From Trypanosoma brucei (taxonomy: Eukaryota), in NCBI GenBank assembly GCA_000002445.1, contig CM000208.1, positions 3,296,001 to 3,360,000 of the forward strand: DNA of 64,000 bases, written 5' to 3'. Below the pieces are notes generated by a model, which was given only the letters and a program-made list of their open reading frames with translations, was not told the origin of the DNA and did no database searches. Of the stretch, positions 30,661 to 64,000 are shown one piece after another. The position numbers were made by a program, and so were the translations under genes. Position 1 is the stretch's first letter. Each line of letters begins with the position of its first letter.

Positions 30661-31816
30661 TTTCGCACTTCTTGAAATGATTAATTACTCCCAAGAACTA
30701 CGACTTGTATCAAACACGGGGGAAAGCAAGATGTAGAGAGCACTAAAGGAAGACAACAAACTCGGAAAGAAAACACCAGGCCAGAAAATAGGCGGTCTTT
30801 CACTACCACCAAACAGCAAACATCACACAACCATACCGTCTGCAAATGCATTATTATGAAACTCAGTGCGCTGCGCCACATTGGCACGGTAACAAGAGGC
30901 ACACGGCACAAAAAAAGACCATACCACACAACTGCCACCCACAATAACATCTACAAGCCGACAACACGGGGCTCAGCTTTAACGATACTGACAAGTGCAC
31001 TCCGGTAAGTGTAGTGATATTTTTCAAGAAGCATAACATAAGCCTCACTTCTACACCACCGATAACGCGTGCAAATAAGCCTGGCGGTGAAACTCCAACG
31101 CAAGTACGAGCAAGCACAACAAACACCTGGTGGCACAATAAGGAATATCACAGGGAAGAAACTAGAAGAAAGGAGGATAGGCGGTGTGTACACAAGGCAC
31201 CGACATACTCGCCTCGCCTCTTGGAAAGCCACCACCCACAACGCACCACCAAAAAGGCATGCCGTGGCTACGGGCCTCCTCAGAAATAGAAGGTAACACT
31301 GAAGAAACAGCAATGGGGGAAATTACTGCAGGTACGTGTCAGTCAAATACAGCACTCTCGCTGAAAGCGTTGGTATCAATCAGCACTAAATTGTCACTCA
31401 GTCGCGCACTACAACTTCTGTCCTCATACACAGCCATGCAGCAGAACATCTCCGCCACATGTATCACCCCACAATGCATGCAAAGCACGGTGTGGGGCGG
31501 TTGTATGGGCGTCGATACAGCAACAGTGAATAAAGATGCAGTGTAAACACACATGGCAGGAAGGAGTTAGGGACGGTAAATGCCGGTACAATCAACACCG
31601 CTGCTCAACATTTGTACACATTCAAGAGTCCTCATTGGGTGTGTCGGTCCGCCTGTCGTTAGACAGTTTCTCATCGTCGCAGCGGTGTCGTGCCCATAAC
31701 ATGTCACATTTCGCATAGTCCAATGATCCAAGAGTCAAAAGAGAAGGGGAAAAAGAGTAACGAGGGGAAGAAGGGAGGAATCAGATAGATTGGTAAACGC
31801 AAAGTTGGTTTCTCGC

Positions 31817-44836: not shown

Positions 44837-46815
44837 ACACAAGACTCCCTCTTCTTACCCTTTCGCTTGTGCAGTATATACCTTTCCTATTATTTTGGCA
44901 GTGTAGTCGATGTAAACCTTATTTTTATAACCTTACTAATGCAAAAAGTATAAACACAAAGGCATGTAAAATAGAATGCCACAGAAAACCCCCGCCCAAT
45001 GCGGCTACAAGTAAGAAACTTTGTTTGACCTGCAAAATGTTTGGTAGGCACCTCATACTGACTGTGTGCCCACCTTTCGGGTGGCCCGTGGATGCTCCGT
45101 CAACTGCGAAAGAAGAGTAGAAAGCAAGAAACCGTTCGTTGTCCACACAAACGTTCAGCCACTTCTGTAGGTTTCATTTCACATAGACGCGCTTTCCTGG
45201 CAACAACCATATTGCACATATTGTGTGTGTGTGTGTGGGTATATGATCCTCGATAGCCATCCACAAATAACAAACCTAAGAGAGGTACACGGAACGGTGC
45301 GACAGGGCGAAAATTGAAGGCTGGACCAAGACCCCACGCACGCACTTTCCACCAAAAGAACAGCGGATCACCGTCAACTGAGCGAGTCATCGATTGACAG
45401 TCGTCACGATCCCCTGTTCTACGCACATCAGGCTATGCTACTATCGATAGAGTAAGAGAGACTGACCTCCAATAACAAAAGAAAGAGGGACCCGCCACCA
45501 CACCACACCTCTTAACAGCGGCTGCCAGTCCTCACTCCCCTTCCTAACATACGATCCCCGTTGGCATCTTCGTGGCCTGCGGACGCAAAGTTAACATCCC
45601 ATAAACGTAACCGTCCACTCCAAGGGTGAAAAAACTTAGAGCAGTCACACCACAAAAAAAAAAAATAGCAGGAGTAACTACAGCTGCTCTGCACAAGCTG
45701 GATGCCAACGCAAACGGGGGATCGGAGGGACACACGTGACGCAACGCGGTGGGGTCTCCGCACTGAGGGCTAAAAGAACAAATCTAATCCAACAGCAGCC
45801 TCACCCCGCCAGGAGTTGTGCTTGCTGACTCACCGCAACTTTAATATTTTGTGCTTCCACTGCTGCTGTCCAGCGGCAGAGGCTCCCGAATGCGGTTCAC
45901 ACTTCTGGCTTGTGTCCCTTGCCATATAGTGCCGAGACTTCCACCACAATGCGTTTACCACCGCGGAGACGGGCAAGCGCATCCACACATATGGTGAACC
46001 AGCCGAGGAAACATCAAACAGGTTTAATCCCAGCGGAAAACTACGGAAACCATGACATCACGGATGATATACATCGTGACCGTATGTAATGTACACTATC
46101 TTTATTTGTGCTTGTGGGGAACATTATTCTTTGGTCCCTGTGAAGCTGAAAGCGGAAACTATGGAAACCAGGTGCACGTCAATAAAAACAGCATCATACT
46201 CACATATATGACGACTGCGACATCACATTCAAACGGGAAACAGCACAGCCCGCGAGTCTGAGACGACTTCCCCAGCTGCACGTCGCTGGGTCACGTGAAA
46301 AATGGAACAAAGTCAATTGTTTCCTCTATATTGATATCCCCATCGCACACGTGCAGGCAGATCCTTCATTTATCATCAAAATAAAAAGTCCGAAAATGAT
46401 GTAAAAGGGGGAACAGCAGTTCAAAAAAAGAAAAAAGAGATGTGCACTGTAATGCAATCGCCGTGTACCATCCCTGCAATGTCTTGTGGTGCAAGTAAAT
46501 TTTTTCATCACGAAAAAAGCATACTGTACATGACGACTTCAAAACATCCATATTCCCCCTCCCTGTGCCTCCTTCCCGCTCCCCGCGCTCCTGGTGGAGC
46601 ACTTGCGTCACCAAATTCTTTCTGCAAATCCCACTTATCCCTCTACTGATCAGTGTAAGAAGCGCAGAAAAGGAATTTCGTGGGGCCAGTGACTACATAC
46701 CAAAGGAAGCACAGAGTTTGAATAGAAAAATGGACACCGCGTAAAGTGTGGTTTACAGTGTGGAGGTAGTAATGCATTGTAGAAAACGACCTTGTCGCCG
46801 ATACCGCCATGTTAC

Positions 46816-51445: not shown

Positions 51446-51760
51446 TTCCTTTAACTACGCTTATTATGATTGGATTCTAATGCTCCTCTTCAGCCCGTGC
51501 ACCTCGAAGAAGCTACTGCAGCTTTTTTTTTAAAAAAAAAGAGAGAGTACAAATAAAACAGTGAGCACTGATTCCAGTAAGCAAAACCATTTGTTAAGGT
51601 CCAACAACGCCAAGCCCGTACGGAACATCACCGAAAGAGGAGCACTACCAACAGCATATATACGCACACATATATATGCGTGTTTCCGAAAAACAAAAAA
51701 AGAGAGCAAGAGCCGTATGTACCGCAATAAATAAAACCCGACTCGTAATGTCTGTACCTC

Positions 51761-52903
51761 CTAACACCTTTGCAAATTGGTCATCTTAATAGAAACATAC
51801 GGGTATTCGTATTGCAGGGACCCGTCTTCCACAGAAGAAGTGTTTGAAAAAGGAACACTCAAATCAGGGTACAGCTGTGATATTTTCTTTCTTATTTCTG
51901 CTTCCTTTCTCTTGTCAACCTGTAGGAATATCGATATGCATCGTGGAGGCAGCCCATATTTCAATAAACTTTCCACAAAAAGTCTCACCGCCTTTAGGTG
52001 AACCCAAGCAACATAGCAACCAGTGTACCTTTGACGAAGTACCAAGCCGAAATTTTTCTTCTCGCTTTCGGCTCTTTTAATAAAATCGTTTAGATCCCTT
52101 ATCGACGGTTCGTCGGCTGCATCCGAATCTCGTACAATATACCTCCTCTTCCGGCACGCCAGCTTCACATCCTCCAACACTCGACGAAAGACGACGATGC
52201 TGTTTAGCACAAACTCGCTATCCTCTGCAATGATACAGTTCGAATCGGGGCAAACGAAATCGTTGAGGGACCAATATTCATTTAGCCACTCTCTCTTCGA
52301 ACTTAAGGGCACTGCGACGAAGAGGTTAGTGAGCAATTCAGTATCAACAATGAAGGGATGGCTCCGGTTTTTCATAGTCACCAGTTCCCTAATAGGTTTG
52401 ACCGAGAGATTGCCCTGAGCTTTTCTTGTCACAGTAGTTAATTTGTTCCGCGTTTCATTATACTTCGTCATCACCAGACGAACACCTTCCTCGGTTGTTG
52501 CGAAATAATTTGCAAACTTTTCCACCAGGCCCAAAATACTTTCATTGCTGTCAAACTGTGCTGAACTCCACTGAAACCCTTTGACGAATGCTGCTGGGGT
52601 CATCTCCTGTGTTTGGTTGAATCGTAAGGTCGCAACGACATCACGTGGCTCTTCACATATCTCTTGCATTATCGTAATCTGCTTTTCCAAGCTGTTCTCC
52701 ACCTGTAAATCCAGTTTTGCCAGCTCGTCACTTGCTTCAATGAGAGAGTCAAGTGTTCCTACCTTAAAGTTCGGGACAGCGAATGAACAAACGTCCTTTC
52801 CCGCAGCCCCAAGGAGGGATACGAGGTTTTTGTATTGAAACGCGAAGGAGTCCGCTCCTGTCGGAAGGAAAGGAAGCCCCAAAAGGAGAAAGTGCTCCGA
52901 CAT
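51761..52903 (-). CDS. V-type H+-ATPase subunit C
   Basis: [29 protein letters not shown] and [25 protein letters not shown] align with V1 subunit C (human ATP6V1C1 [23 protein letters not shown] ... [23 protein letters not shown]), compared from memory. The track start at 52918 is GTG; ATG at 52901-52903. Confidence 0.85.
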   Translation of the reverse strand: [380 protein letters not shown]

Positions 52904-53249
52904 TTTACACTGCTCCACCCCTATGCTTACCTAGAAATAAAGAACCGTAGTGTGTTTTCCAAACAGGAGTAGAAGGCGGCGAGCACTGACACACGAAAAA
53001 CAGGTAGCAATAATGCCGTAAAACGCCGACCAGTCCATAAGACTGTCGATTTCGAAATCCATGAGCAAAACTATCTTCAGACACAGTAAATGACACTGAC
53101 AGGAAGCCATCCGAAAGTAAAAAAAGTGAATGAGACTAAGATAAATAGAGTGCTAAACCCCCACGCGGTAGTTTAAAGAAAAAATAGGGGCTAGCGTGCG
53201 ATGCCAAAAGCTACAAACAAGCTGACAGACAAAAAAATGGAAACGAACA

Positions 53250-56200
53250 GGATGCGGACATACCCGTATTACACGAGGGGTCGCAGCACAACGATAAGCG
53301 GTGCACCCCAATTGGCCCATCATCCATTCCCTTTCTCTGCCTCCCACCCCCACTTCCTAACAGCAGGTTGTCCCACCCTAAGGCAACAGCACCCGCCCCG
53401 CGCACCCTCGCCAACCAGACCCGCATGGTACGCGTGCGAAAAGGCCCCACCGTAGAGGGAGCAAATCCATGCCTCCAGAGCACCATCAGCACGGCCGCCG
53501 ATTTCACGCACCCGAGAAGCGTTCGGGCTGCGCAGCTGCAAGTCCAACGGCGCAGGTCCCAGATGCTCCGCTCTCTCCTCCCCTTTCTAGAACCCCACAG
53601 CATTGACAGGGGCTCGCGGCTTCCACTGCGAGCGGGGGCATTCGGCACGGCACCGTTACCTACATGGGGGAGTTCTCTCCAATTGAAAAGGGTAATGGCG
53701 GGGGAGGGGGCCCTCTCCACTCAAAATAGGAATTAGGGTACCTCCCCGGCTGCCGCAGCATTATGTGGCGGGTCGCCCTCCAACTCGCGGTGGTGGCAAG
53801 AGCCTCTTCACAGTAGCAACGTGGCTTCTCTTCGCAAATGCCACCGCGGGCGCGCCCACGCCGGAAAGTCTAATGCATTGAAGGGCTTCCGGCTGCACAG
53901 AGACCCTTCCTGCACAAAAAGTACGTGGATTGTGGTTGCGACGTTCCGAAGGCGAAACCTCACGACGGCGACCCAGCGACGCTTCATGCTTACACAGAGT
54001 GAACGGGCACCTGCTTGCAGAGCTCAAATGGGTCACCGGAATTTTTTACACTTCTTGCAGCCCAGTGGGTGCTCGTTGCTCTTTAGTTTGTTACCTCCTT
54101 TTCCAAATTTCTTTCTCACGATTTGCGACGCCTTCCCCTTGCCCCGACTGCGTCCACCATTTCCGGCACCCATTTATTGCCCCTTGCCCATCCGGGCCCT
54201 CACCAAACACCACACCACCGTACTCTTCGTTTCTCCCCGGTTCTGACAGCGCAGGGCTTTGCTGCCGGCGCCTATTCAGCGAAGTTGCCTCTAGACTGGG
54301 AATGCGCCCTGGGCGCTTTTCTCTTCGGCACCCCGCAAGCGAGCATCCGCGGCATCCCCTTCTTCACGCTGAATTGGAACAATTCCACCCCGCTGGTTAA
54401 AAACCCGCACCCATCCTACCTGAATTACTTACCCATTGGCTGGTATTTGCGCCCCTCGAGCGTCTTTAATTTGAGGGCACCTCCTCATTCGTTACATGAA
54501 CAGCTCCCGCTACCAATAGGGTCTGCGCTCGCCGTTCCCGCTACTCTTTCGAGACCAAATTCGGCCTCACACACATATCGCCCGCAGCAGTTGCGGTGGT
54601 TCCCCTGCTTCCTACATGCCCAAGCGCCGCTTTTCTTCCCGACACGCTCCGTTCTGAAACATGTTTGAGCCCGCCGCGGCTGTTGGGTTCTACCAACCGC
54701 ATCCTATTCGATGCCCTGTACCCCTTCCATTTTCCTCCTGTTGCGATTCGGCAAAGTTCGAGGGAGGGAACGCATCATATTCCGTGCTTGGCGCAAGGCG
54801 TGGGTCAGCAAGCCATCAATCGAAAATTTGATGTGCGGCTCCAGCCCATCCTCAGCCCCCGGTCTGGTGGATGACGTTTTTCGTGTCGGAGGAGAGGCCC
54901 CTCAGGCTACACTCACCGGAGGGTGCATTTTTACGAAAATTGTATTTGGAACCGCCTCGTCCCCATGCTATGGTTAAGTTGGTGGTGAGCTTTCAGCCGT
55001 GAAACTGAATGCTCCACGGCGTCGTTGCACCGTAGCGGAGCCTCTGGCTTTTGTGCAGGGGTAGGCATCCCGTACCGGACGGGAGAAGCTGGCCATTACT
55101 AAATCTCCATCGGGTGCGGGGAAAAGCGGAACGGCAAACGTACTACGTTTGTCGTGTGGGTGGGGTGAGGAAACTGTACTCCAGTTTCGGACAGAAGGAA
55201 TTTGCAAGCATGAAGTGACGCTCCCCAACGGTAGATGGGCTTAGTTGATGGAAACGTGTCCCTTCCGCACTGGACTCCATACGCCCTCGCCCTCGCTAGC
55301 CGGCGCACGAAAGTCCATTCCATTGACAACTTGGTATGTGGAAAACCGCACTTCGGGGGAGGGGCGCAGTGGGAGGTACCCCTTCCGCTGCCCAATGGCG
55401 CCGAAGATGGGGAGGGACTTTCTGTTTGAGTTCCCCACCTACAGGAAGCAGTTGCGGCGGATGGCCAACAAGGGCCGCTTTCAAGTGCAGGAAGAAAAAT
55501 AATTCCCCCCGTCACACTCCGGAGGTGATGGCATTGGTGACCGACCTTGTTCCACTCGGTGGTGGACGCTCTGCCGCCCTCGAGAAGAAAATATTAGAGT
55601 GCGTGCATGCGATTCGCTTTCGGTAAGCACAAGCGGCAACGGAACTGGATCACAAGGTCGAATAAGTTTGGTACCCCCGAAGGCGGTTGCAACCTCAGAG
55701 TAGTTCCTTTTCGCTTCACTTTCTCCTTTTCCGTCGTTTGAGGGAAGGCGAACTTCCGCGACGGTTGGCGAGCAGAGTGGGGTCTACACTCATTCCCATA
55801 GTGCTTCCCCGACGCGCTGACAACGATCTACGGTGACACGGTGCTGCGCTTGCCAACAAACTAGGGTAAAGGAACTGTGCTTGAAAAATGATTGGCAACT
55901 AAAGGCTATTTTCCTAGAGGCCTCTTGCCGGAACTTGCGGGTGCGAAGTGGTGTGCAGTTGGCGGGATGAGCCCCCGGAAAAGGCGCACACTTCCAAGCA
56001 TGTCGTCCTTTTAGGCGCCGGCCTTGCGACCACACCCTCAAACGTTGCTCCGCGTTGTGCTTGTGCGCGTTTCGGTGACCTTGGTGGTCGTGATCTAAAC
56101 AAAAGTGTACAATAAGAGTAAATTCTGGCGTATGTTGAGTGTGCCGCTTCCAGCGCCTTTTTCATGCACTCTGGTGACGTTTTCCACCGCATCGGGAGTG

Positions 56201-57640
56201 GGATGCGCAATGAAGGTGGCAACGGTGGAAAGCGCTGCGAAGAGGATTGGGGTAGAGGAAGTGCCAGAGGGATACGACGAAGGAATAAGAAAATGAGGCT
56301 CTGCTTAGTTCAAGAAACGGACCCGACATGGGATGAAAAGTGTACAAGTGGTGGCGGGATAAAGGAACACGGGAACGCCGAAGATGACGGGCTGCACAGG
56401 GAAGGGAGGAGCAGATGGTGGGGAAACCGCATGAACTTACCACCCTTCAATTTTCACAGCCACGTGGCGGGCTCCGGTGGGGTTGGGAGGGGCAAGGGGG
56501 ATGGGGAATAAATATCGCAGAATTACCGCACCCCTCGTCCTGGATGAATCCGGTTCCTTGGCCACGTTGGAACGTTGAACCGAATAGACCGTGTAAACTG
56601 CGCGCCATCAGGCGGCTCGAGGCTACAGCACTTTCAAACACAGCGAAAGTGGCGATCCCGAAGCAGACAAGGGATTTGTTCTGCAAGGAATAAAAGGAAT
56701 TCCACACCTCGTTACACAAAGTGGCGTCTCCACCTTCCACACCCGGGGAAAGTAACTTTGGGGCGCCGGAGCATCACTGCTTTTGCGCTGCCTCAGTTCC
56801 ACCCGCTTTCTCACAACGTCTCCGTGGTAAACATATTTCGTAACCCGCTATCCCTGCTGATGCTCACAGCTGCATCGGCCTCCAAAGGATGGAGGTTGGA
56901 ATGGGCTGTTGTAAACTCTCCTCCGCCTGTAGGGTCCCAAATTCGGAAAGATTGAAGTCTCAGTGGTCTGACCCAACGTAATATCTGCATATGCCCCCCT
57001 TCGGTGATTTAGCGGCACATTGGGTAGGAGAGACTGATTGGACGACTACAAGCTCCAGCCAACGAATTCGATTGGATTTGGTGGCCGTAAGGGCTCTAAT
57101 TGCCTGGAACAATTGCTTTAGAGAGCTTTTTGGGAAAATGCCTCCCTAACCCCAACGACATCAAACTACGCACGGGGAGGGGGAAACTATTTACGGCGAA
57201 AGCGGGCTCGAGAGTCACTGGCTTTGCGAATAGCAGTTCACACCTGCCCTGCGGATGTGCATGATTTGGTGGGAAAGGTGGAAAGTTGGAAATGCTGCCA
57301 CTATGCGGTTCGAGGGTCAGGAGGATCCGCTGTCATATGATCAAGTGATGTGTCTGAGAAGGAGGGAGAAGGGGAAGGGGATGCCAGAAAGGCCGATTCG
57401 CCGCGGCCCACGCGCTGCAACATGAGAACTCTTTGCTCAAACAGCGTGGGACCCGCAGTGAGAAAGTATGGTGGGAGGGTGGGCTTTGGTTTTTCCAACT
57501 TCCTGCGAAGAGATCGACCGTTACAACTTTGTGTCAATCCATCTGGTGCCGACCTACTCTTATTAACATTTCCGCCGTTTCGGTTTGTCCTCACTACTTC
57601 TGATGAGAGAACAACCGCAAAGGGCATTGACTACGCTCCA
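53250..57640. other. GC-rich (~60-67% GC) non-coding island with a strand-skew switch; function unknown
   Basis: No ORF above 181 aa on either strand. The longest ORFs are Pro/Gly/Arg-rich composition artefacts. 53.25-54.95 kb is strongly C-skewed on the + strand (for example C=30 vs G=8 in 54181-54240). 54.95-56.55 kb is G-skewed on the + strand (G=30 vs C=9 in 56461-56520). It is flanked by normal AT/purine-rich spacer. Confidence 0.6.
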
Positions 57641-58000
57641 AATGAAAGATAATTAAAAAAGAGAGCACAGGGAGAATGAAATGCAGCGACGGGCACTGTG
57701 CGGAACAACCGCCACTGCCGCATTCGTACCAATATATGCGTAATTTGAGCAATGCTACTCCAGTGGAAGGATGAAGGGAGGGGAGAAGGTTTGTTCCCCA
57801 CCACCTCCACCGGTCCGTTACTCAAACACAACGTCCCGAGGACAGCTATGTTTGAAAGTAAGAAAATGTCGATAAATGGGGTTAGATGGATCTTAACAAC
57901 ACATAAAGAAATAAATTACGGGGGAATAGGAACTGGAGCATTAGTCCCAGCCAAATACCCCCATATCGTCACCCATTTCCTTCATCCCCCGCAGTACTTC

Positions 58001-59149
58001 TCATACCCGAGGTGGAATGAGTGACTCGGAGGGGCCGAGATACTTCACCCCACACCCGACAGGGGACTGCAGTAACATCTCAAACGGCTTCTTCGGGTGG
58101 TCAATCAGCTTCTTATATTCGTCGGGAAGCGATACAACCTTGACTTTCTCAAGTAACTCGCGGTCTCCGAAGAAAAACTTCTCGAATGGTGTTGGGAAGT
58201 GCTCCATGAGCATAGCCACGGCTTCAGGAAGGTCCTCCTTAAGAACAAACAAGAAACAGTTCGCCCCGGCATCGAAGGTGTAAGCCAGTGCTGTGCGGCC
58301 CTTCTTCGCATTGTAGGCTTTCACGAGGCGGATCATCGCGTAGCTGTCCTCCGTCGCATACGTAATCTTCGGTTCGGTGGTCGCGCATATCTCCTGCAGG
58401 TCGTCCGATTCAAGCATTGCAATCTCTGCAAAGGTTGCGAAATCCCTCGCCTTTATAGCTCTCGAGGCAATTTTCATGCGCTCCGGTACAGTTTCTGAGA
58501 TGCGCTTCTTCATCAAAGGCGACGTTTTGAGGGACTGCTGCATGCCCTTGGTGCTGGAGACATCCTTCTGTGCCCCTTTAAGGACAGCGCACATCACCTG
58601 TATCTCGGGCCAATGCGTTTCGTCAACAAATTGTGTGGCCACACAGTCGCTACCATCAGGTTTCTCCCCCTTGTTCCATATAACGAAACCCCCAAAGGCA
58701 CTGCGGCAGGCGCTGCCAGATCCAAGGCGAGCAAGCATTGAGACGTTAGTGGTGGACTTGAAAGCACGGATGAGCGCCGCCGACATGGCGCAGTAGCCGC
58801 TAGCGGAAGAGGCCATCCCAGCGGCAGTTGGGAAGTTGTTCTCCGATACGATGTTCACCTTTTTGTTTTTCAGGTCTTCGGGGCATGTGCTCCTGAGATG
58901 AAGGAGCATCGACTGGACCCGTGGAGTCTTTCCCACATCAACCTCGGTGCCGTTCAGTCGCAACGTGTCTGTCTCGATGTCGTCCCTGAGTTCCACGGAG
59001 GTTTTGCTACGAAACGGGCTTGCGGAGAGCGTGATGCTAAAAGAGTCATTTGTGGGGAGTATCAGCGTCTCTCCACCCTCACGCTTACCCCAGTACTTGA
59101 TAAAAGCGATGTTGATGGGTGCCTCGACGGTGGCACACTGGTCGGACAT
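58001..59149 (-). CDS. MVD: diphosphomevalonate (mevalonate-5-pyrophosphate) decarboxylase, 382 aa
   Basis: GHMP-kinase fold with the MVD signature APINIAFIKYWGKREGG and the NDSFSITL region. The track start at 59257 is TTG; ATG at 59147-59149 (MSDQCATVEAP...). Confidence 0.9.
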   Translation of the reverse strand: MSDQCATVEAPINIAFIKYWGKREGGETLILPTNDSFSITLSASPFRSKTSVELRDDIETDTLRLNGTEVDVGKTPRVQSMLLHLRSTCPEDLKNKKVNIVSENNFPTAAGMASSASGYCAMSAALIRAFKSTTNVSMLARLGSGSACRSAFGGFVIWNKGEKPDGSDCVATQFVDETHWPEIQVMCAVLKGAQKDVSSTKGMQQSLKTSPLMKKRISETVPERMKIASRAIKARDFATFAEIAMLESDDLQEICATTEPKITYATEDSYAMIRLVKAYNAKKGRTALAYTFDAGANCFLFVLKEDLPEAVAMLMEHFPTPFEKFFFGDRELLEKVKVVSLPDEYKKLIDHPKKPFEMLLQSPVGCGVKYLGPSESLIPPRV

Positions 59150-59351
59150 GGCGCCGCTTTGCCACGCAGCAATTAATCCTTCCCTCGCTTTACCTACGCT
59201 GAGGTCAGTAAGAAAGGGGAAGTAAGTACTGAGGAGAAAAAGTGATTGAGAAAACAATTTAAAAGCTACAAGCTCCGTTCACATTACGATTTCCCCCCTC
59301 TTTTTGCGGATAGGAAACGCCACGCCTGGGTCGAATCTGCGACCCGCAATG

Positions 59352-60377
59352 CTAGGCCACACTCCGGCAGGAACGCAAGATGGTGGCCACCCTGTTATGT
59401 GCGGCGAAGGAGGCTTGTGGTACACTTGGCGGGGTCAGCGGAGCCACCGAGGCCTCAGCCTCCCAACCAAATCCTACAAGAGCCGCTAACGCATCTTCGG
59501 CATCGGCGTGCTTCTCCGTGCTTTTTGACACCATGCGCCGACCTGTCAGCAGGGCCAACGCAAAGTCGGCATCGTCAGGATGGAACAACTCCACGACTGT
59601 AGCGAATGAGCCACCGTTGGAAGCAAAACTGAAAGCGTAATCCGCAACGGGACCAACGTGTCTGGTGAGTTTCGATAGCAGCCCCGCGGGGTCGCAAGTG
59701 GACAGCGGCACCGGCACCGCGTTTCGTATCCGTGCGCTCGCTAGTGGGGTATTGCCCTGCACAAAGCCTTCACTAGATGGGCCGCTAACGTCGGTGGCTG
59801 CCGTTGTTTCACCACGAAGCAGTGCCGTCAACTCTCCATCCGTCTCACGAATGCCTTCCGTCGTCCTCTCCAACGATTCTTGCGCGCGGCAGTACGACTC
59901 CTGGAGCTCCAACAGTCTTTGCAGCAACTCCCCGCCCTCAGCCGCCTGCTCGCTAGTTTCCAACATTTCCGGAATGGCACGTACAAGCAGCTCATCCATT
60001 TGCAAGTCGCGGGGCATCAGGTGGTTCTTTGGGAGATTTGGATTCATTTCCAACTTAGTTTTCTCCTCTTGTACGCCCCCCGCGGCGCCCTCTAGAGTAG
60101 CCACTGCAGCCGTTTGTTTCTTGAACACGTTGGAGTGTATTTCGATGGCATGATTCTTCAGCCGTTCGCCATCAAGGTGGTCTACCGCCAGCCGCGCCGC
60201 TGAACTCTGGTGGAAACGAACCCAGTAAAATGACCGTTGCCGGGAAGCATCGTATCGCATTTTCAACTCATCAATGTCCCCAATAATACGCAACCATTCG
60301 TGCACATCTTCAGCGAGTACCGCCGAGAGGTCATCAACAAAGACGTGCACAACCCTTGCGTCACCTCGATCGGCCAT
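59352..60377 (-). CDS. hypothetical protein with two RRM-like modules (putative RNA-binding protein), 341 aa
   Basis: The track start at 60491 is TTG; ATG at 60375-60377 (MADRGDARVVHVFVDDL...). N-terminal VVHVFVDDLSAVLAEDVHEWLRIIGDIDEL...SFYWVRFHQSSAARLAVDHLDGERL and C-terminal ADYAFSFASNGGSFATVVELFHPDDADFALALL both resemble a beta-alpha-beta-beta RRM topology. Confidence 0.55.
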   Translation of the reverse strand: MADRGDARVVHVFVDDLSAVLAEDVHEWLRIIGDIDELKMRYDASRQRSFYWVRFHQSSAARLAVDHLDGERLKNHAIEIHSNVFKKQTAAVATLEGAAGGVQEEKTKLEMNPNLPKNHLMPRDLQMDELLVRAIPEMLETSEQAAEGGELLQRLLELQESYCRAQESLERTTEGIRETDGELTALLRGETTAATDVSGPSSEGFVQGNTPLASARIRNAVPVPLSTCDPAGLLSKLTRHVGPVADYAFSFASNGGSFATVVELFHPDDADFALALLTGRRMVSKSTEKHADAEDALAALVGFGWEAEASVAPLTPPSVPQASFAAHNRVATILRSCRSVA

Positions 60378-60786
60378 TGCTTTCAGGAACAGGGAAGGAG
60401 AGGGATTGTCGCGCACACGGGCAGGGAGAGGGGCAACAGTTGGTTCACAGAAAGACGTACAGAACAACGGAGGCCCGCAGTACGTGCTCAAACTGGCATA
60501 GGGACCATACGTTTAAGAACACCAAATTGAAATAAAGGAAACAAAAAATAAAATAAAATAAAGGTGATCGTTATGTACCCGATAAAATGATGTGCTTTAT
60601 ACTATTGCGGAGGATTGGGGGAATGATAAACTTGCCGCTGAGCTACTAAATTTCATGCGTTTTGTGCCAGTTACTCTTACGACAAACGATGGCGATTTCG
60701 CCGCAGATGCAGTTAAGAAACGATAGTCCTATTTATTTATTGTTAGAAGTGAAAGTATCTCGAAGTATCCCTTCTAGAGAGGAAAG

Positions 60787-62370
60787 CTACAAAGTGTCTT
60801 TGCTTCTTTCCGCGGGTGTTTGGTCTCCCACCAACCTTCTATCTTCGCTTGCGACTCGGGAGTGAGGTGTACTCGCCTCACGTGACAGTATGTAGTAGAC
60901 GGCAAGCCAGCACGGAATTGCAAGACCAAGGAATGCGAATATCACAAGAAGAGCATTACGTAGCTGATACTTGCTGACGCAGTGTCCATCCGTGCTATTA
61001 CCCGTTTTGTTTATCCACTTGCATAAATTGTCAATGTCGTTTCCGCACTGGGTGTTATTACCATGCGCCGGACATCCTCTCGAGAAGGCATTGTCAGAGA
61101 GATAACCAGCAAGTGTTGGTGACGGGAAATCGCCTAGCAAGTGAATAAGAAGAACGGAGTAACTCACGGCATATGCCCTTTGATCCCATGGGACCACTGT
61201 TAGTATTGCTGAGTTAATGGGTGCTGTGACTGCAAAGAGAGTAAACACCGAAACCACCAGAAGCGATGTAAACAGCCAAGTAACTTCCATGAACAATGCA
61301 GCAAGTCCTGCGGGGACGCTGACGGCAATCATGACGACGCAAAAAAGCTGACACTTCATAGTGCCTGAAGAGCCAAGGCTCCCTCCAAGTTTGTCCACTA
61401 CAACGCCTCCGACGATGGATCCAATGATACCGGTAAGTGCTGTGGTACCGCCCATGATCATTGATGCCGTCATGTTGGTAAGCTCCATCGGCCCATCAAC
61501 TAGAAAAGGTATTGACCATACCGAGAGGCCGCCGATTACGAAGCAGTACATTGCGTAACCGAAGACAACAAGGAGATACCGTGCGTTCGTGAAAATGTGA
61601 AAAGTGGCCTTATGTATCGGGAGGTATTCGTTGTCGCGTTTCTGGCGCATGTTGTATCGTTTGGGGAGGAATACGATAAGTAGCAAAATCGGAATGGCGG
61701 CGATCGCAAGGGAGAGAAAGGTTACACGCCAGCCCTCCAGACCCCCTACGGAACCATACGCACCCATCACACCACCGGCAGCCATACCAACCGCTGTCCC
61801 GACGGGGATCATAGAGTAGAACGTGCCTATCCACGATGTCCGTGACTCGGGTGGTGCAATGGCATCAATCACCGTCACTGTGAAACCAACAAAGGCGGCC
61901 TCTCCCACCCCATCAAAGATTCTGCAGGCGAGAAGGAACTCATACGAGCGTGCCAGGCCGGTTCCAACTAAAGCAGCAGCCCATGCAATGATGCCTACGG
62001 CGATGATCCACTTGGATTGTACGACACCTCCGAGCCCAGCGAACAGGGGACAGGCGACCATGAAGCCAATCATGAAGCCTGAGAAAAGCAAGCCGGCCTT
62101 CGTATCCGTCAGAACATTCGATGACCCCGCGATGGTCGGATCACCCTTAATGACGACTAAACAACCGGCAATGGCTCCGCGGTCGTAATACGTGACGAAG
62201 TTGAGAAGCGTGAAGATGGAAAGAACAATGCGAGGTGTCATGAGCCGCCCCCACCGTGATACAGGTTCCTCGGCAGTAGGATCAACCTCCTCAGGTGTAG
62301 TTTGCACTTCTTCATGTTCGTTCGTTTCGTGGGGATCGTTCCTTTGCGTTTTATCTTCGGAAGCCATCAT
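60787..62370 (-). CDS. major facilitator superfamily (MFS) transporter, 12 TM
   Basis: ATG confirmed. 12 hydrophobic helices. MFS motif-A-like RIFDGVGEAAFVGF, GAIAGCLVVIK and FMIGFMVACPLFAGLGG. Confidence 0.85.
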   Translation of the reverse strand: MMASEDKTQRNDPHETNEHEEVQTTPEEVDPTAEEPVSRWGRLMTPRIVLSIFTLLNFVTYYDRGAIAGCLVVIKGDPTIAGSSNVLTDTKAGLLFSGFMIGFMVACPLFAGLGGVVQSKWIIAVGIIAWAAALVGTGLARSYEFLLACRIFDGVGEAAFVGFTVTVIDAIAPPESRTSWIGTFYSMIPVGTAVGMAAGGVMGAYGSVGGLEGWRVTFLSLAIAAIPILLLIVFLPKRYNMRQKRDNEYLPIHKATFHIFTNARYLLVVFGYAMYCFVIGGLSVWSIPFLVDGPMELTNMTASMIMGGTTALTGIIGSIVGGVVVDKLGGSLGSSGTMKCQLFCVVMIAVSVPAGLAALFMEVTWLFTSLLVVSVFTLFAVTAPINSAILTVVPWDQRAYAVSYSVLLIHLLGDFPSPTLAGYLSDNAFSRGCPAHGNNTQCGNDIDNLCKWINKTGNSTDGHCVSKYQLRNALLVIFAFLGLAIPCWLAVYYILSREASTPHSRVASEDRRLVGDQTPAERSKDTL

Positions 62371-62644
62371 TCACTACTGTAGTCGAAAAAAGAGGCGGGG
62401 TATGGGAAGCTTTGTCCGCTGCTTAGCGGTAAGCGTAGCAATGGATTGAAACAAATGAGAGGGCGAGGTGGGTGTTGTGTGAAAGGCGTGGCGCTTTGTT
62501 TTCACTTTCTGTTAATAAGCGGTTTGCACAAATGAATCTAAGTGTATTGTTGATCAACAACTAAAGGAAATAAATAAGTCACGAACGAATAACATCAAGG
62601 GAAGCTCCCATGAACTTGAAAGAATTATCTGTCAGTTGGGCAGG

Positions 62645-63064
62645 TCAGCAGCCTGTGATCCCTCTCAGCGCATGTAGGGCAGAGACAACACGGTGTGTTG
62701 GAGGGAGAATGTCAACCAGAGCCCAGGCAGCACGCGCCCACTCACCCTGCTTTTCTGTATTGTTGATGTGAAGATAGAAAACGGAATTGTTCCACGCCTC
62801 GACCGTAAAATATTCCAAAAGGAGTAGGGCGAAAGCGGAGGAGTTATTGGCGGTTACGCCCCTTTCCCCAACCGCACCGTAGCGCCCAAGAAAGGTGCCG
62901 ACGGTAATACCCATCACGGGAAGAGAAAGGAAACTCATGAGGTGCTGCACTACGCACATTTGCTCTTTTCTGTCGGATCCCAAAGTGAAGGCTCTGTACA
63001 GGCAAGAGAGGTTCTTTGTAAGGGTTTCAGCAACCGCTTCCTCTTCACCCGCTTGCGTGAGCAT
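62645..63064 (-). CDS. small hypothetical protein (139 aa); may be the remnant of a disrupted longer gene
   Basis: ATG confirmed at 63062-63064. The same reading frame as ORF 63260-63670 is open upstream, interrupted by a TGA at 63110-63112. A third frame (62950-63240) overlaps. Confidence 0.3.
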   Translation of the reverse strand: MLTQAGEEEAVAETLTKNLSCLYRAFTLGSDRKEQMCVVQHLMSFLSLPVMGITVGTFLGRYGAVGERGVTANNSSAFALLLLEYFTVEAWNNSVFYLHINNTEKQGEWARAAWALVDILPPTHRVVSALHALRGITGC

Positions 63065-64000
63065 TGAGAGGAGATAATTACGTTACCCTTAATGAAGAAG
63101 TTCCTTGCATCATTGTCTTCCGTAGTGTGCAAGTGTGGCAGAGCCATATGTATGATCATTTCCGTGTCGCTGAAGTTTGCACCTTCTGCTTGACAAGTCG
63201 TGAAGCAGCATGGCAGACCCAAATGTTGGGAGCGCCGCACTGCTGACGTTGGCGGCGGGTTAGGAACGTAACGAATACTGCCAACGTTGCGTATTTGTAG
63301 CTAACGTCCCTGAATCCGACATATAGACCTGCTGGTGGCGTTGCAGCGTAATAATACCGTTATTATGATCACTGCAGCGGCACAATGAAGCCATGTGAGC
63401 TGCGGCAAATAATTGGTGGCGAAGCAAGTTAACTAACGGCTCTATGTGTGAGTGGTCGTGCTCACGGCAAAATCTGAACCCCCCTTGAACACAGAAGGGG
63501 AAGTCGTTTCTGATAAATGACAAGACCGAGGGGGAGGGCGAAGCCGCAAAGGAGTCCCGCTCACCGTTGTTGTGGGTTGCAAACGATGATATATTGCACG
63601 AATGCTCCAAGAGCGGAATGGCGTCACAAAAACCTACCTCTGATCGCAGATGCCCATTCCCTCCAACCAAGAAAAAAAAAGAGCAGAAGAGACGATTTCA
63701 CCGACATGCAAAAAGAAAACAACATCACGTTAACATCATCTTTCCCTCACAAACCAGCTTGCTCACCCATTCCCGCTGCATAAAACTAGAGTATTTCCTA
63801 CCTTTGTTTCACAAGCACACCCAAGTTTGTTCTTCTAGCTCACACCACTGGTCAGTGCTCCCTCGCCATATGATACGCGAGAAGTTTGCATACTACACAC
63901 GTGGGTATAATTTCCTCTCCGCCTTCTTGCCCAGCAAAGTACACAACCGACAAAGAAAATGAGGGAAAACTATAAGGCAAACACGAGAAGTTAAGTGCTT

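What the first reader, a model, noticed from the sequence alone, without database searches (positions are those of the whole stretch)
53250..57640. 4.4 kb GC-rich, ORF-free island with a C-to-G strand-skew switch inside a unidirectional gene array
Other spacers in this window are 0.25-2.7 kb, AT- or purine-rich and microsatellite-bearing. This block is ~4.4 kb, ~60-67% GC and CpG-rich, with no protein-like ORF in any frame. Its left half (53.25-54.95 kb) is strongly C-rich on the + strand, so G-rich on the transcribed minus strand. Its right half (54.95-56.55 kb) is G-rich on the + strand with long G-tracts (ggggaggggcgcagtgggagg, tgggtggggtgagg, ggggttgggaggggcaagggggatgggg). G-tracts diverging from a central point are reminiscent of what I recall being reported at trypanosome Pol II transcription start regions (GT/G-rich promoters with H2A.Z deposition). 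So this could be an internal head-to-tail transcription boundary or cryptic bidirectional start between MVD and V-ATPase C. Alternatives are a degenerate ingi/DIRE-type retroposon, a decayed pseudogene, or a long ncRNA locus. It is the only element in the window that the gene models do not explain.
Basis: partly seen in the sequence, partly recalled or inferred. Interest (0 to 1): 0.75.

Follow-up and report, generated by a model that had tools for sequence, protein, structure and literature searches.

The report
Known internal transcription boundary in T. brucei
The gene-free, GC-rich block between the MVD and V-ATPase C genes on Trypanosoma brucei chromosome 10 is where one long RNA polymerase II transcription unit ends and the next begins; this boundary was already listed in a 2010 transcription-start map, and it was created by an ancient inversion plus a 7.7 kb duplication.

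Summary
The window is T. brucei TREU927 chromosome 10, v4 coordinates 3,296,001-3,360,000.

**Observation: real but overstated.**
- The spacer (52919-58000) is the longest and most GC-rich in the window.
- GC is 55.6%, not 60-67%.
- CpG is not enriched.
- The C-to-G skew switch near 54.9 kb is the strongest in the window (z about 4).

**Interpretation: supported, and already published.**
- Kolev et al. 2010 (Table S14) end one Pol II unit at this MVD copy. They start an 'Internal' unit at V-ATPase C.
- Kieft et al. 2020 show the centre of the block is silent. It rises about 14-fold when the termination factor PNUTS is depleted.

**Added here.**
- In T. theileri, T. vivax and T. cruzi, V-ATPase C opens a unit at a divergent strand switch, and MVD closes a unit at a convergent one.
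- T. brucei inverted that whole unit of about 103 kb.
- It then copied a 7.7 kb block (MFS, RBP27, MVD and 2.6 kb downstream) in front of V-ATPase C.
- So the island is composite. 55369-57746 is duplicated post-MVD sequence, and 52904-55368 is the old promoter side.

No retroposon, pseudogene or RNA-family signal was found. A direct comparison with ingi/DIRE sequences could not be run.

The parts
51761..52903 (-). V-ATPase subunit C gene (Tb927.10.14040 = Tb10.61.2840), the first annotated ORF of the 'Internal' Pol II unit
   Evidence: Pfam V-ATPase_C, E 8e-94. 100% identical to the TREU927 protein. The ID is given in PMC5790291. Kolev Tables S6 and S14.
52904..53250 (-). 5' flank of V-ATPase C with several polypyrimidine tracts followed by AG on the sense strand; probable trans-splice acceptor zone (inferred)
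   Evidence: Sequence read on the minus strand. The sense-strand G+T fraction is 0.63 at 53000-53499, against a window mean of 0.532 (sd 0.038).
53211..53603 (-). Annotated 130-aa ORF (Tb10.61.2830; Tb927.10.14050 by position), probably not a real protein gene
   Evidence: Exact match to TREU927 EAN78776.1, labelled 'T. brucei spp.-specific protein' in T. b. gambiense. Listed in Kolev Table S2 as having no detectable transcript in procyclic forms. TPM 21-26, unchanged by PNUTS RNAi, in bloodstream forms. Weak codon score.
53250..54950 (-). Arm that is G-rich on the sense (minus) strand; candidate initiation zone for the V-ATPase C unit. The TSS is inferred to lie between about 53.6 and 55.1 kb.
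   Evidence: GC skew -0.163 on the plus strand. C4+ run density 11.2 per kb, the window maximum. Three of the window's nine minus-strand G-quadruplex motifs lie at 53306-53351, 53392-53422 and 54169-54199. RNA is present at 53211-53603 but absent at 55099-55323.
54900..55000 (.). GC-skew switch point
   Evidence: Largest skew contrast in the window, z = 4.0. It lies inside the unique part, about 400 bp from the duplication breakpoint.
55099..55323 (-). Annotated 74-aa ORF Tb927.10.14060 (Tb10.61.2800); a marker of the silent centre of the boundary
   Evidence: Exact match to TREU927 EAN78777.1. Listed in Kolev Table S2 as having no transcript. TPM 0.12, 0.11 and 0.49 rise to 2.7, 3.8 and 4.3 after PNUTS RNAi; log2FC 3.84, p 1.4e-6.
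55368..55369 (.). Distal breakpoint of the 7.7 kb segmental duplication: unique sequence to the left, duplicated sequence to the right
   Evidence: L011 9830-15009 aligns to window 60548-55369 at 99.7% and then stops sharply. T. b. gambiense has the same breakpoint.
55369..57746 (-). Non-coding distal part of the duplication: a copy of the sequence that follows the ancestral MVD copy. Candidate termination zone (inferred). C-rich on the sense strand.
   Evidence: 99.7% identical to L011 12632-15009. One plus-strand G-quadruplex motif at 56469-56506. The downstream unique ORF is silent and PNUTS-sensitive.
57747..58000 (-). MVD 3' UTR, with the major poly(A) site at 57747
   Evidence: Kolev Table S13 places the Tb10.61.2745 poly(A) site at 3,353,747 with a 254-nt UTR. 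The window offset is 3,296,000.
58001..59149 (-). MVD, duplicate copy (Tb10.61.2745; Tb927.10.14070 by position), the last ORF of the upstream Pol II unit
   Evidence: Pfam MVD-like_N and MDD_C. 100% identical to EAN78778.1. A second TREU927 copy is EAN78728.1, given as Tb10.05.0010 in Kolev Tables S6 and S14.
55369..63052 (-). Whole 7.7 kb segmental duplication: 3' fragment of a 943-aa gene, MFS transporter, RBP27, MVD, and 2.6 kb downstream
   Evidence: blastn of L011 (T. equiperdum, the ancestral end of the unit) against the window gives 96.5-99.7% identity.

Best explanation
The block is a head-to-tail boundary between two RNA polymerase II polycistronic units on the minus strand.

**How it works (model)**
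- Pol II coming from the upstream unit (... MFS, RBP27, MVD) makes the MVD mRNA, whose poly(A) site is at 57747.
- It then terminates somewhere in 57746-55369. This is inferred.
- The centre, around 55.1-55.3 kb, is transcriptionally silent. This is shown.
- Pol II starts again in the arm that is G-rich on the sense strand, roughly 53.6-55.1 kb. This position is inferred.
- That start drives the unit of about 103 kb that begins with V-ATPase C and ends with the other MVD copy.

**Origin: the block is composite**
- The left 2.5 kb (52904-55368) is the promoter side that V-ATPase C carried with it when the whole unit was inverted. In relatives this gene sits at a divergent, bidirectional strand-switch promoter. 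That promoter has a GC-rich core and the same C-to-G skew polarity.
- The right 2.4-2.6 kb (55369-57746 and the MVD 3' UTR) is the tail of a 7.7 kb segmental duplication. It copied the end of that same unit, including its post-MVD sequence, in front of V-ATPase C.
- The skew switch is therefore partly the old bidirectional promoter core and partly a junction of two unrelated sequences.
For: **Published maps**
- Kolev 2010 Table S14 lists the unit 'Tb10.61.1810 to Tb10.61.2745, minus, Divergent'. It is followed by 'Tb10.61.2840 to Tb10.05.0010, minus, Internal'.
- Tb10.61.2840 is V-ATPase subunit c. Tb10.61.2745 and Tb10.05.0010 are both mevalonate diphosphate decarboxylase.
- The table rests on 5'-triphosphate RNA tags that coincide with histone-marked sites.
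- The window maps to Tb927_10_v4 with an offset of 3,296,000.

**Silent centre**
- In Kieft 2020 Table S4, the ORF at 55099-55323 has TPM 0.1-0.5. It rises to 2.7-4.3 after PNUTS knock-down (log2FC 3.84). Flanking genes stay at 10-450 TPM.
- That paper places most such core genes at the flanks of transcription units.
- No poly(A) site is listed between 3,347,629 and 3,353,747.

**Synteny**
- T. theileri L005 and T. cruzi L007 have a CFAP74-like gene divergent from V-ATPase C, followed by the same downstream genes.
- T. theileri L006 and T. vivax L001 have MVD convergent with SSNA1, SRP19 and PK.
- In T. brucei, SSNA1 lies upstream on the same strand. CFAP74 follows the other MVD copy on the same strand.

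**Duplication**
- L011 7285-15009 matches window 63052-55369 at 96.5-99.7% with sharp ends.
- TREU927 and T. b. gambiense each have two MVD and two RBP27 proteins.

**Composition**
- Sense-strand G-tracts are at the window maximum in the left arm.
- The T. theileri and T. cruzi divergent regions have a core of about 62% GC with the same skew polarity.
- G-quadruplexes are reported enriched at T. brucei start and termination sites (PMC13316426).
Against: - No chromatin data (H2A.Z, H2B.V, H4K10ac, H3.V, H4.V, base J) and no read-level 5'-triphosphate data for this locus could be inspected.
- The exact start and stop positions inside the block are inferred. They rest on two ORF-level RNA-seq values and on composition.
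- The PNUTS effect rests on low read counts (1, 1, 4 against 24, 30, 37).
- The 10-mers enriched on the coding strand of T. brucei start regions are not enriched. There are 3 sense-strand hits in 5 kb, against 1.25 per kb across the window. There is no poly-G run longer than 6.
- Kolev names V-ATPase C, not the two short ORFs, as the first ORF. The start could therefore lie closer to V-ATPase C than proposed.
- The right part is 99.7% identical to its paralogue. Short-read maps there are ambiguous.
Confidence: 0.85

Rival explanations
1. All or part of the block is a degenerate ingi/L1Tc-related retroposon (DIRE), inert or co-opted, of the kind that accumulates at strand switches and inversion breakpoints in trypanosomatids. 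This is not exclusive of the boundary function.
For: - A review reports that retroposons in T. brucei are about 60 times denser in strand-switch regions than inside gene clusters, and that they sit at inversion sites (PMC5814959).
- T. cruzi carries a multicopy element with a weak Pfam reverse-transcriptase match (E 7e-4, below the curated cut-off), plus a degenerate copy, directly after its MVD.
- The block is GC-rich and about the size of such an element.
Against: - Six-frame Pfam scans at E up to 10 gave no reverse transcriptase or endonuclease hit. The test is weak, since even the intact T. cruzi ORF only scores E 7e-4 against RVT_1.
- There is no similarity to the T. cruzi element by tblastn or tblastx.
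- There is no residual codon signal on either strand.
- There is no HDV-like ribozyme or any other Rfam match at E up to 1.
- There is no A-rich tail, target-site duplication or internal repeat, and no copy elsewhere in the window.
- The only other copy is part of a gene-carrying segmental duplication.
- The longest ORF has no real homologue among 1.84 billion representative proteins.
- TREU927 annotates two 'hypothetical' ORFs here, not a retroelement.
Confidence: 0.1
2. The block is decayed remains of the genes that flanked the ancestral junctions (CFAP74-like, SSNA1, SRP19, PK) or of another lost gene.
For: - The composition is closer to coding than to other spacers (GC 55.6% against 45-49%).
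- The skew polarity matches the coding-strand G excess seen across the window.
Against: - tblastn of all these neighbours from T. theileri, T. vivax and T. cruzi against the block gives only chance matches (best E 0.03-1).
- These genes are intact elsewhere in T. brucei.
- There is no codon-usage signal and no Pfam hit.
Confidence: 0.03
3. The block is ordinary read-through spacer, or a long non-coding RNA locus inside one continuous transcription unit, with no termination or initiation.
For: - Steady-state RNA is present over 53211-53603 in bloodstream forms (TPM 21-26).
- Trypanosome spacers can be silent at steady state simply because unprocessed RNA is degraded.
Against: - Kolev's map splits the array here into two units with an 'Internal' start.
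- The MVD mRNA ends 254 nt after its stop codon, and no further poly(A) site is listed in the block.
- The centre responds specifically to loss of a termination factor.
- Synteny shows both flanking genes were unit ends in the ancestor.
- There is no Rfam match.
Confidence: 0.04

Closest known systems
Internal (non-divergent, head-to-tail) Pol II transcription start and termination regions of T. brucei: 'Internal' in Kolev 2010, 'ndTSR' (n = 57) in Wedel 2017, 'HT sites' in Kieft 2020
   Same: - It lies between two same-strand units.
- It is listed as 'Internal' in Kolev Table S14.
- It has a silent, PNUTS-sensitive centre.
- It has G-rich tracts on the sense strand ahead of the first gene.
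- It is several kb long and gene-free.
   Different: - It is not next to a tRNA, snRNA or rRNA gene, unlike many such sites.
- It lacks the long poly-G and GT-repeat 10-mers typical of start regions.
- Its upstream half is a 99.7% duplicate of another boundary.
Divergent strand-switch (bidirectional) Pol II promoter of trypanosomatids
   Same: - This is the ancestral state of the V-ATPase C promoter in T. theileri and T. cruzi.
- It has a GC-rich core with G-rich sense strands on both sides, the same polarity as the island.
- Kolev reports bidirectional 5'-triphosphate reads at all start regions.
   Different: - In T. brucei no gene is transcribed in the other direction. The former partner, CFAP74, now sits behind the other MVD copy.
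- The T. brucei region is 2.5-5 kb, against 0.75-0.9 kb in the relatives.
DIRE / ingi-type degenerate retroposons at strand switches
   Same: The location (a synteny breakpoint or unit boundary), the size range, and the absence of an intact ORF.
   Different: No reverse transcriptase or endonuclease remnant, ribozyme hallmark, A-tail, target-site duplication or dispersed copies were detected with the tests available. A direct comparison with ingi/DIRE sequences was not possible.
Mammalian CpG-island bidirectional promoters with GC skew (analogy drawn by Kolev 2010; skew and R-loop link from general knowledge)
   Same: Broad, dispersed initiation; positive GC skew in the direction of transcription on both sides of a centre; potential for G-quadruplexes or R-loops.
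   Different: There is no CpG enrichment here (observed/expected 0.88). The unit is polycistronic. The chromatin marks are kinetoplastid-specific.

Membership tests
T. brucei internal (head-to-tail) Pol II start region | Primary (5'-triphosphate) transcripts start between two same-strand gene arrays | tested here: met
   Taken from the literature, not from reads. Kolev 2010 Table S14 types the unit starting at Tb10.61.2840 (V-ATPase C) as 'Internal', after a unit ending at Tb10.61.2745 (MVD).
T. brucei internal (head-to-tail) Pol II start region | Broad peak of H2A.Z/H2B.V, H4K10ac, H3K4me3 and BDF3 | not testable with these tools
   No ChIP-seq tracks or peak lists for this locus could be reached. 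The supplements searched held none.
T. brucei internal (head-to-tail) Pol II start region | G-rich or GT-rich sequence on the coding strand at the upstream edge | tested here: inconclusive
   Sense-strand G fraction is 0.30-0.36, against 0.264 (sd 0.031). G4+ run density is at the window maximum. But only 3 of the Wedel 10-mers fall in 5 kb, and no run is longer than 6.
T. brucei Pol II termination region (single, head-to-tail type) | H3.V, H4.V and base J upstream of the next start, with read-through in termination mutants | tested here: inconclusive
   The marks could not be tested. Read-through is supported indirectly: Tb927.10.14060 at 55099-55323 rises about 14-fold after PNUTS RNAi. It is not listed in the held supplements of the H3.V/J study.
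T. brucei Pol II unit boundary (evolutionary criterion) | Flanking genes are the terminal and the first genes of units in related species | tested here: met
   MVD is last before a convergent switch in T. theileri and T. vivax. V-ATPase C is first at a divergent switch in T. theileri and T. cruzi.
ingi / DIRE retroposon | Remnants of AP-endonuclease, reverse transcriptase or RNase H coding sequence | tested here: not met
   Six-frame Pfam scan at E up to 10 found none. No match to the T. cruzi RT-bearing element. No codon signal. Sensitivity is limited, because no ingi protein was available.
ingi / DIRE retroposon | Pr77 / HDV-like ribozyme hallmark at the 5' end, A-rich 3' tail, target-site duplication | tested here: not met
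   Rfam scan at E up to 1 found nothing. No flanking direct repeats. The Pr77 consensus itself was not available to search with.
ingi / DIRE retroposon | Dispersed multicopy distribution in the genome | not testable with these tools
   No T. brucei whole-genome database was available. There is no copy elsewhere in the 64 kb. The one known second copy belongs to a gene-carrying segmental duplication.
Structured or long non-coding RNA gene | Match to an RNA family, or a discrete processed transcript | tested here: not met
   No Rfam match. No tRNA. Kolev lists no poly(A) site in the block and lists both short ORFs as lacking a transcript.

The most novel reading that the evidence does not exclude
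The two 'Internal' start regions that bracket the V-ATPase C-to-MVD unit of about 103 kb may be the separated halves of one ancestral bidirectional strand-switch promoter.
- One is this island. The other is the 5.5 kb gap between the other MVD copy and CFAP74.
- They would have been split when the whole unit was inverted in place, after the T. vivax lineage branched off.
- The 7.7 kb duplication then carried the 2.6 kb post-MVD sequence to the new junction. There it may act as a portable Pol II terminator that insulates the old promoter from the upstream unit.
- If so, the locus is a natural experiment. The same candidate terminator sits in two contexts, and each half of a bidirectional promoter works alone.
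Probability: 0.45. Interest if true: 0.45.

Novelty: already known. Interest (0 to 1): 0.3.

Why it matters
The boundary itself is already in published genome-wide maps, so it changes nothing for the field.

What may be useful is the history recovered here.
- It shows how a head-to-tail boundary that is not tRNA-associated can arise. A whole transcription unit is inverted with breakpoints in its two strand-switch regions, and a small duplication follows.
- It gives sharply defined sequence modules: a unique 2.5 kb promoter side, and a duplicated 2.4-2.6 kb post-gene module present at two boundaries. These could be tested directly in reporter or deletion assays for promoter directionality and for termination. 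Both remain poorly defined at the sequence level in trypanosomes.
- It flags a practical trap. 55369-63052 is 96.5-99.7% identical to its paralogue (99.7% over RBP27, MVD and the post-MVD segment). Short-read ChIP and RNA signals, including MVD and RBP27 expression values, are ambiguous there.

Tried and rejected
**Tests that found nothing**
1. Six-frame Pfam scans of 53101-57900 at E up to 10 gave only one chance DUF hit.
2. tblastn of ancestral neighbours (CFAP74-like, SSNA1, SRP19, PK, RRM, Arf, ECH) and of the T. cruzi RT-like ORF against the block found nothing.
3. blastn and tblastx of the block against syntenic loci of T. vivax, T. theileri and T. cruzi matched only the MVD end.
4. The codon-usage scan showed no coding signal.
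5. Rfam at gathering and permissive thresholds, and ARAGORN, found nothing in the block.
6. Tandem, direct and inverted repeat searches, and blastn against the rest of the window, found nothing meaningful.
7. blastn and tblastx of the unique left part against the 5.5 kb MVD-to-CFAP74 gap of L011 showed no shared element, in either orientation, that could have mediated the inversion.
8. HMMER of the longest ORF (193 aa) against 1.84 billion proteins gave only a compositional match to a bacterial repeat protein.
9. An RT motif regex gave one chance 'LVDD'.

**Searches that did not deliver what was needed**
10. The third homologue search, with the T. cruzi RT-like ORF, returned only T. cruzi copies. 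It gave no ingi sequences, so no direct ingi/DIRE test was possible.
12. Exact look-ups of the window MVD and of the 108-aa ORF found no contig.
13. Supplements of Staneva 2021, the SPARC paper and Reynolds 2016 held nothing on these genes.
14. Siegel 2009 is not held.

**Model rejected**
15. A staggered-break model for the duplication was rejected. It predicts inverted copies, and the copies here are direct.

Full report
**Where the window comes from.** Two trypanosomatid snoRNAs (TB10Cs4H3 and H4) lie at 31.2-31.5 kb. The MVD and V-ATPase C proteins are 100% identical to T. brucei brucei TREU927 proteins on a 4,054,025-bp contig. Two short ORFs in the block match TREU927 entries exactly. Their coordinates in Kolev et al. 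2010 fix the window as Tb927_10_v4 3,296,001-3,360,000. All 26 ORFs of at least 200 aa are on the minus strand.

**Checking the observation.**
- The spacer between V-ATPase C (51761-52903) and MVD (58001-59149) is 5,082 bp ORF to ORF. That is twice the next longest.
- GC for 53250-57640 is 55.6%. This is the highest 4.4 kb stretch of the window, against a window mean of 49.5% and 45-49% for other spacers. It is not the 60-67% claimed; only 53250-53999 reaches 60-62%.
- CpG observed/expected is 0.88, against 0.94 for the window, so there is no CpG enrichment.
- GC skew is -0.163 on the left and +0.121 on the right. The contrast at 54.9 kb is the largest in the window, z = 4.0.
- C-tracts in the left half are at the window maximum (11.2 per kb against 3.8). 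G-tracts in the right half are near the top (8.1 against 3.0). Three minus-strand G-quadruplex motifs lie on the left and one plus-strand motif on the right.

**What is not there.**
- There is no coding signal on either strand.
- No Pfam family appears in any of the six frames at E up to 10.
- There is no Rfam family even at E up to 1 and no tRNA.
- There are no tandem, direct or inverted repeats of note, no target-site duplication, and no copy elsewhere in the window.
- The longest ORF (193 aa) has no genuine relative among 1.84 billion representative proteins.
- The two annotated ORFs (130 aa at 53211-53603, 74 aa at 55099-55323) are labelled T. brucei-specific. Kolev lists both as giving no detectable transcript.

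**Synteny.**
- In T. theileri and T. cruzi, V-ATPase C is the first gene of a unit. A CFAP74-like gene lies 0.75-0.9 kb away on the other strand, and the downstream genes largely match the window's (442/440-aa proteins, TBCC, aconitase; the window lacks one 449/452-aa gene between TBCC and aconitase).
- In T. theileri and T. vivax, MVD is the last gene of a unit and faces SSNA1, SRP19 and PK.
- In T. theileri both genes are on one contig, about 110 kb apart on the same strand, with V-ATPase C upstream.
- In Leishmania martiniquensis the two locus tags are 55 genes apart on one chromosome.
- In T. brucei, SSNA1 (with SRP19 and PK) lies upstream of the window's MFS-RBP27-MVD block on the same strand.
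- A T. equiperdum contig (L011) shows the other end of the unit: zf, 158 aa, 943 aa, MFS fragment, RBP27, MVD, a 5.5 kb ORF-free gap, then CFAP74 on the same strand.
- The simplest reading is that the whole V-ATPase C-to-MVD unit was inverted in place in the T. brucei lineage. That turned one convergent and one divergent strand switch into two head-to-tail junctions. T. vivax, T. theileri and T. cruzi give the polarity.

**The block is composite.**
- TREU927 and T. b. gambiense each have two MVD and two RBP27 proteins.
- L011 7285-15009 aligns to window 63052-55369 at 96.5-99.7%, with sharp ends.
- So a 7.7 kb segment was copied in front of V-ATPase C. It holds the last 126 codons of the 943-aa gene, MFS, RBP27, MVD and 2.6 kb beyond MVD.
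- The breakpoint, 55369/55368, is the same in T. b. gambiense.
- The right part of the finding (55369-57746) is thus post-MVD sequence from the other boundary.
- The left part (52904-55368) is unique. It shares nothing with the rest of the L011 gap.
- The skew switch (about 54.95 kb) falls inside the unique part, 400 bp from the breakpoint.
- The divergent regions of T. theileri and T. cruzi have a 150-bp core of about 62% GC with a C-to-G switch of the same polarity. The unique part plausibly retains the old bidirectional core.

**Published functional data.**
- Kolev et al. 2010 (PMC2936537), Table S14, lists 'Tb10.61.1810 to Tb10.61.2745, minus, Divergent'. It then lists 'Tb10.61.2840 to Tb10.05.0010, minus, Internal'.
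- Their Table S6 names Tb10.61.2840 as V-ATPase subunit c. It names Tb10.61.2745 and Tb10.05.0010 as mevalonate diphosphate decarboxylase.
- The table summarises sites where 5'-triphosphate RNA tags pile up. These coincide with histone-marked sites and gave both sense and antisense reads.
- The MVD poly(A) site is at window 57747 and that of V-ATPase C is at 51629. None is listed in between.
- Kieft et al. 2020 (PMC7055916), Table S4, gives Lister 427 coordinates that track the window with a near-constant offset.
  - The 74-aa ORF has TPM 0.12, 0.11 and 0.49 without PNUTS RNAi and 2.7, 3.8 and 4.3 with it (log2FC 3.84, p 1.4e-6).
  - The 130-aa ORF stays at 21-26, V-ATPase C at about 200, and MVD and RBP27 at about 10.
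  - That paper reports that up-regulated core genes cluster at unit flanks.

**Model.**
- Shown: the array is split here in a published start-site map. The centre is silent and sensitive to a termination factor. Both flanking genes were unit ends in the ancestor. The right part is a duplicate.
- Inferred: termination occurs within 57746-55369. Initiation occurs within about 55.1-53.6 kb, on the arm that is G-rich on the sense strand. Polypyrimidine tracts at 53250-52931 serve trans-splicing of V-ATPase C.
- G-quadruplex enrichment at T. brucei start and termination sites (PMC13316426) fits the tract asymmetry, but was not tested at this locus.

**Comparison with known kinds.**
- The block belongs to the class called 'Internal' (Kolev), 'non-divergent TSR' (Wedel 2017, n = 57) or 'HT site' (Kieft).
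- It differs in three ways. It has no adjacent tRNA, snRNA or rRNA gene. It lacks the poly-G and GT-repeat 10-mers of Wedel's Dataset EV1. Its upstream half is a near-identical copy of another boundary.
- The retroposon alternative has a fair prior, because such elements concentrate at strand switches and inversions (PMC5814959), and T. cruzi has an element with a weak reverse-transcriptase match right after MVD. It has no positive evidence here. A direct ingi/DIRE comparison could not be run.

**Verdict.**
- The added value is its history (unit inversion plus 7.7 kb duplication) and the sharply bounded modules it offers for testing promoter and terminator function.
- Interest is low to moderate.

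Noticed in passing
window 62648-63025 (-): A 126-aa 3' fragment (99% identical to residues 818-943) of the 943-aa gene that precedes MFS at the paralogous locus. It is a truncated pseudogene piece marking the proximal edge of the 7.7 kb duplication, whose breakpoint is at 63052/63053.
   Followed up: partly
L009 and L008 (T. b. equiperdum CM010681.1), breakpoint at window 53001: This assembly carries an extra tandem copy of about 15.6 kb: PK, SRP19, SSNA1, the 943-aa fragment, MFS, RBP27, MVD and the island down to window 53001. Many genes in it are frameshifted, so it may be an assembly error rather than a real duplication.
   Followed up: partly
L010 1-610 (T. b. gambiense) against window 63053-64000: In T. 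b. gambiense the duplicated block matches the paralogous locus for at least 610 bp further upstream than in TREU927. The proximal edge of the duplication therefore differs between subspecies or assemblies.
   Followed up: no
window 58001-60377 (MVD, RBP27): Both genes show low TPM (about 10) in the PNUTS data set, and Kolev lists the two MVD IDs on one line. Because the paralogues are 99.7% identical, these values may reflect multi-mapping reads rather than low expression.
   Followed up: no
L003/L004 12883-15717 and 17428-18074; L002 13348-13593 (T. cruzi): Directly after MVD, T. cruzi has an intact 945-aa ORF with a weak RVT_1 match. It belongs to a T. cruzi-only multicopy family that sources name 'TOR kinase' or 'rab1', which do not fit an RT-like ORF. 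There is also a degenerate frameshifted copy. SSNA1, SRP19 and PK are not within 10 kb.
   Followed up: partly
window 44843-46815: T. theileri and T. cruzi have a gene of about 450 aa between TBCC and aconitase. The window has a 1,973-bp spacer there, and tblastn finds no trace of that gene anywhere in the 64 kb.
   Followed up: partly
L011 12378-17896 (T. equiperdum): The paralogous boundary between MVD and CFAP74 is also a 5.5 kb ORF-free stretch with 51-53% GC. Its CFAP74-proximal 2.9 kb is strongly T-rich on the sense strand (AT skew -0.27). By position, CFAP74 is probably Tb10.05.0270, the first ORF of another 'Internal' unit in Kolev Table S14.
   Followed up: partly
window 31219-31281 and 31448-31513 (-): Two H/ACA snoRNA genes (TB10Cs4H4 and TB10Cs4H3) lie in a spacer of the same minus-strand array.
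   Followed up: no
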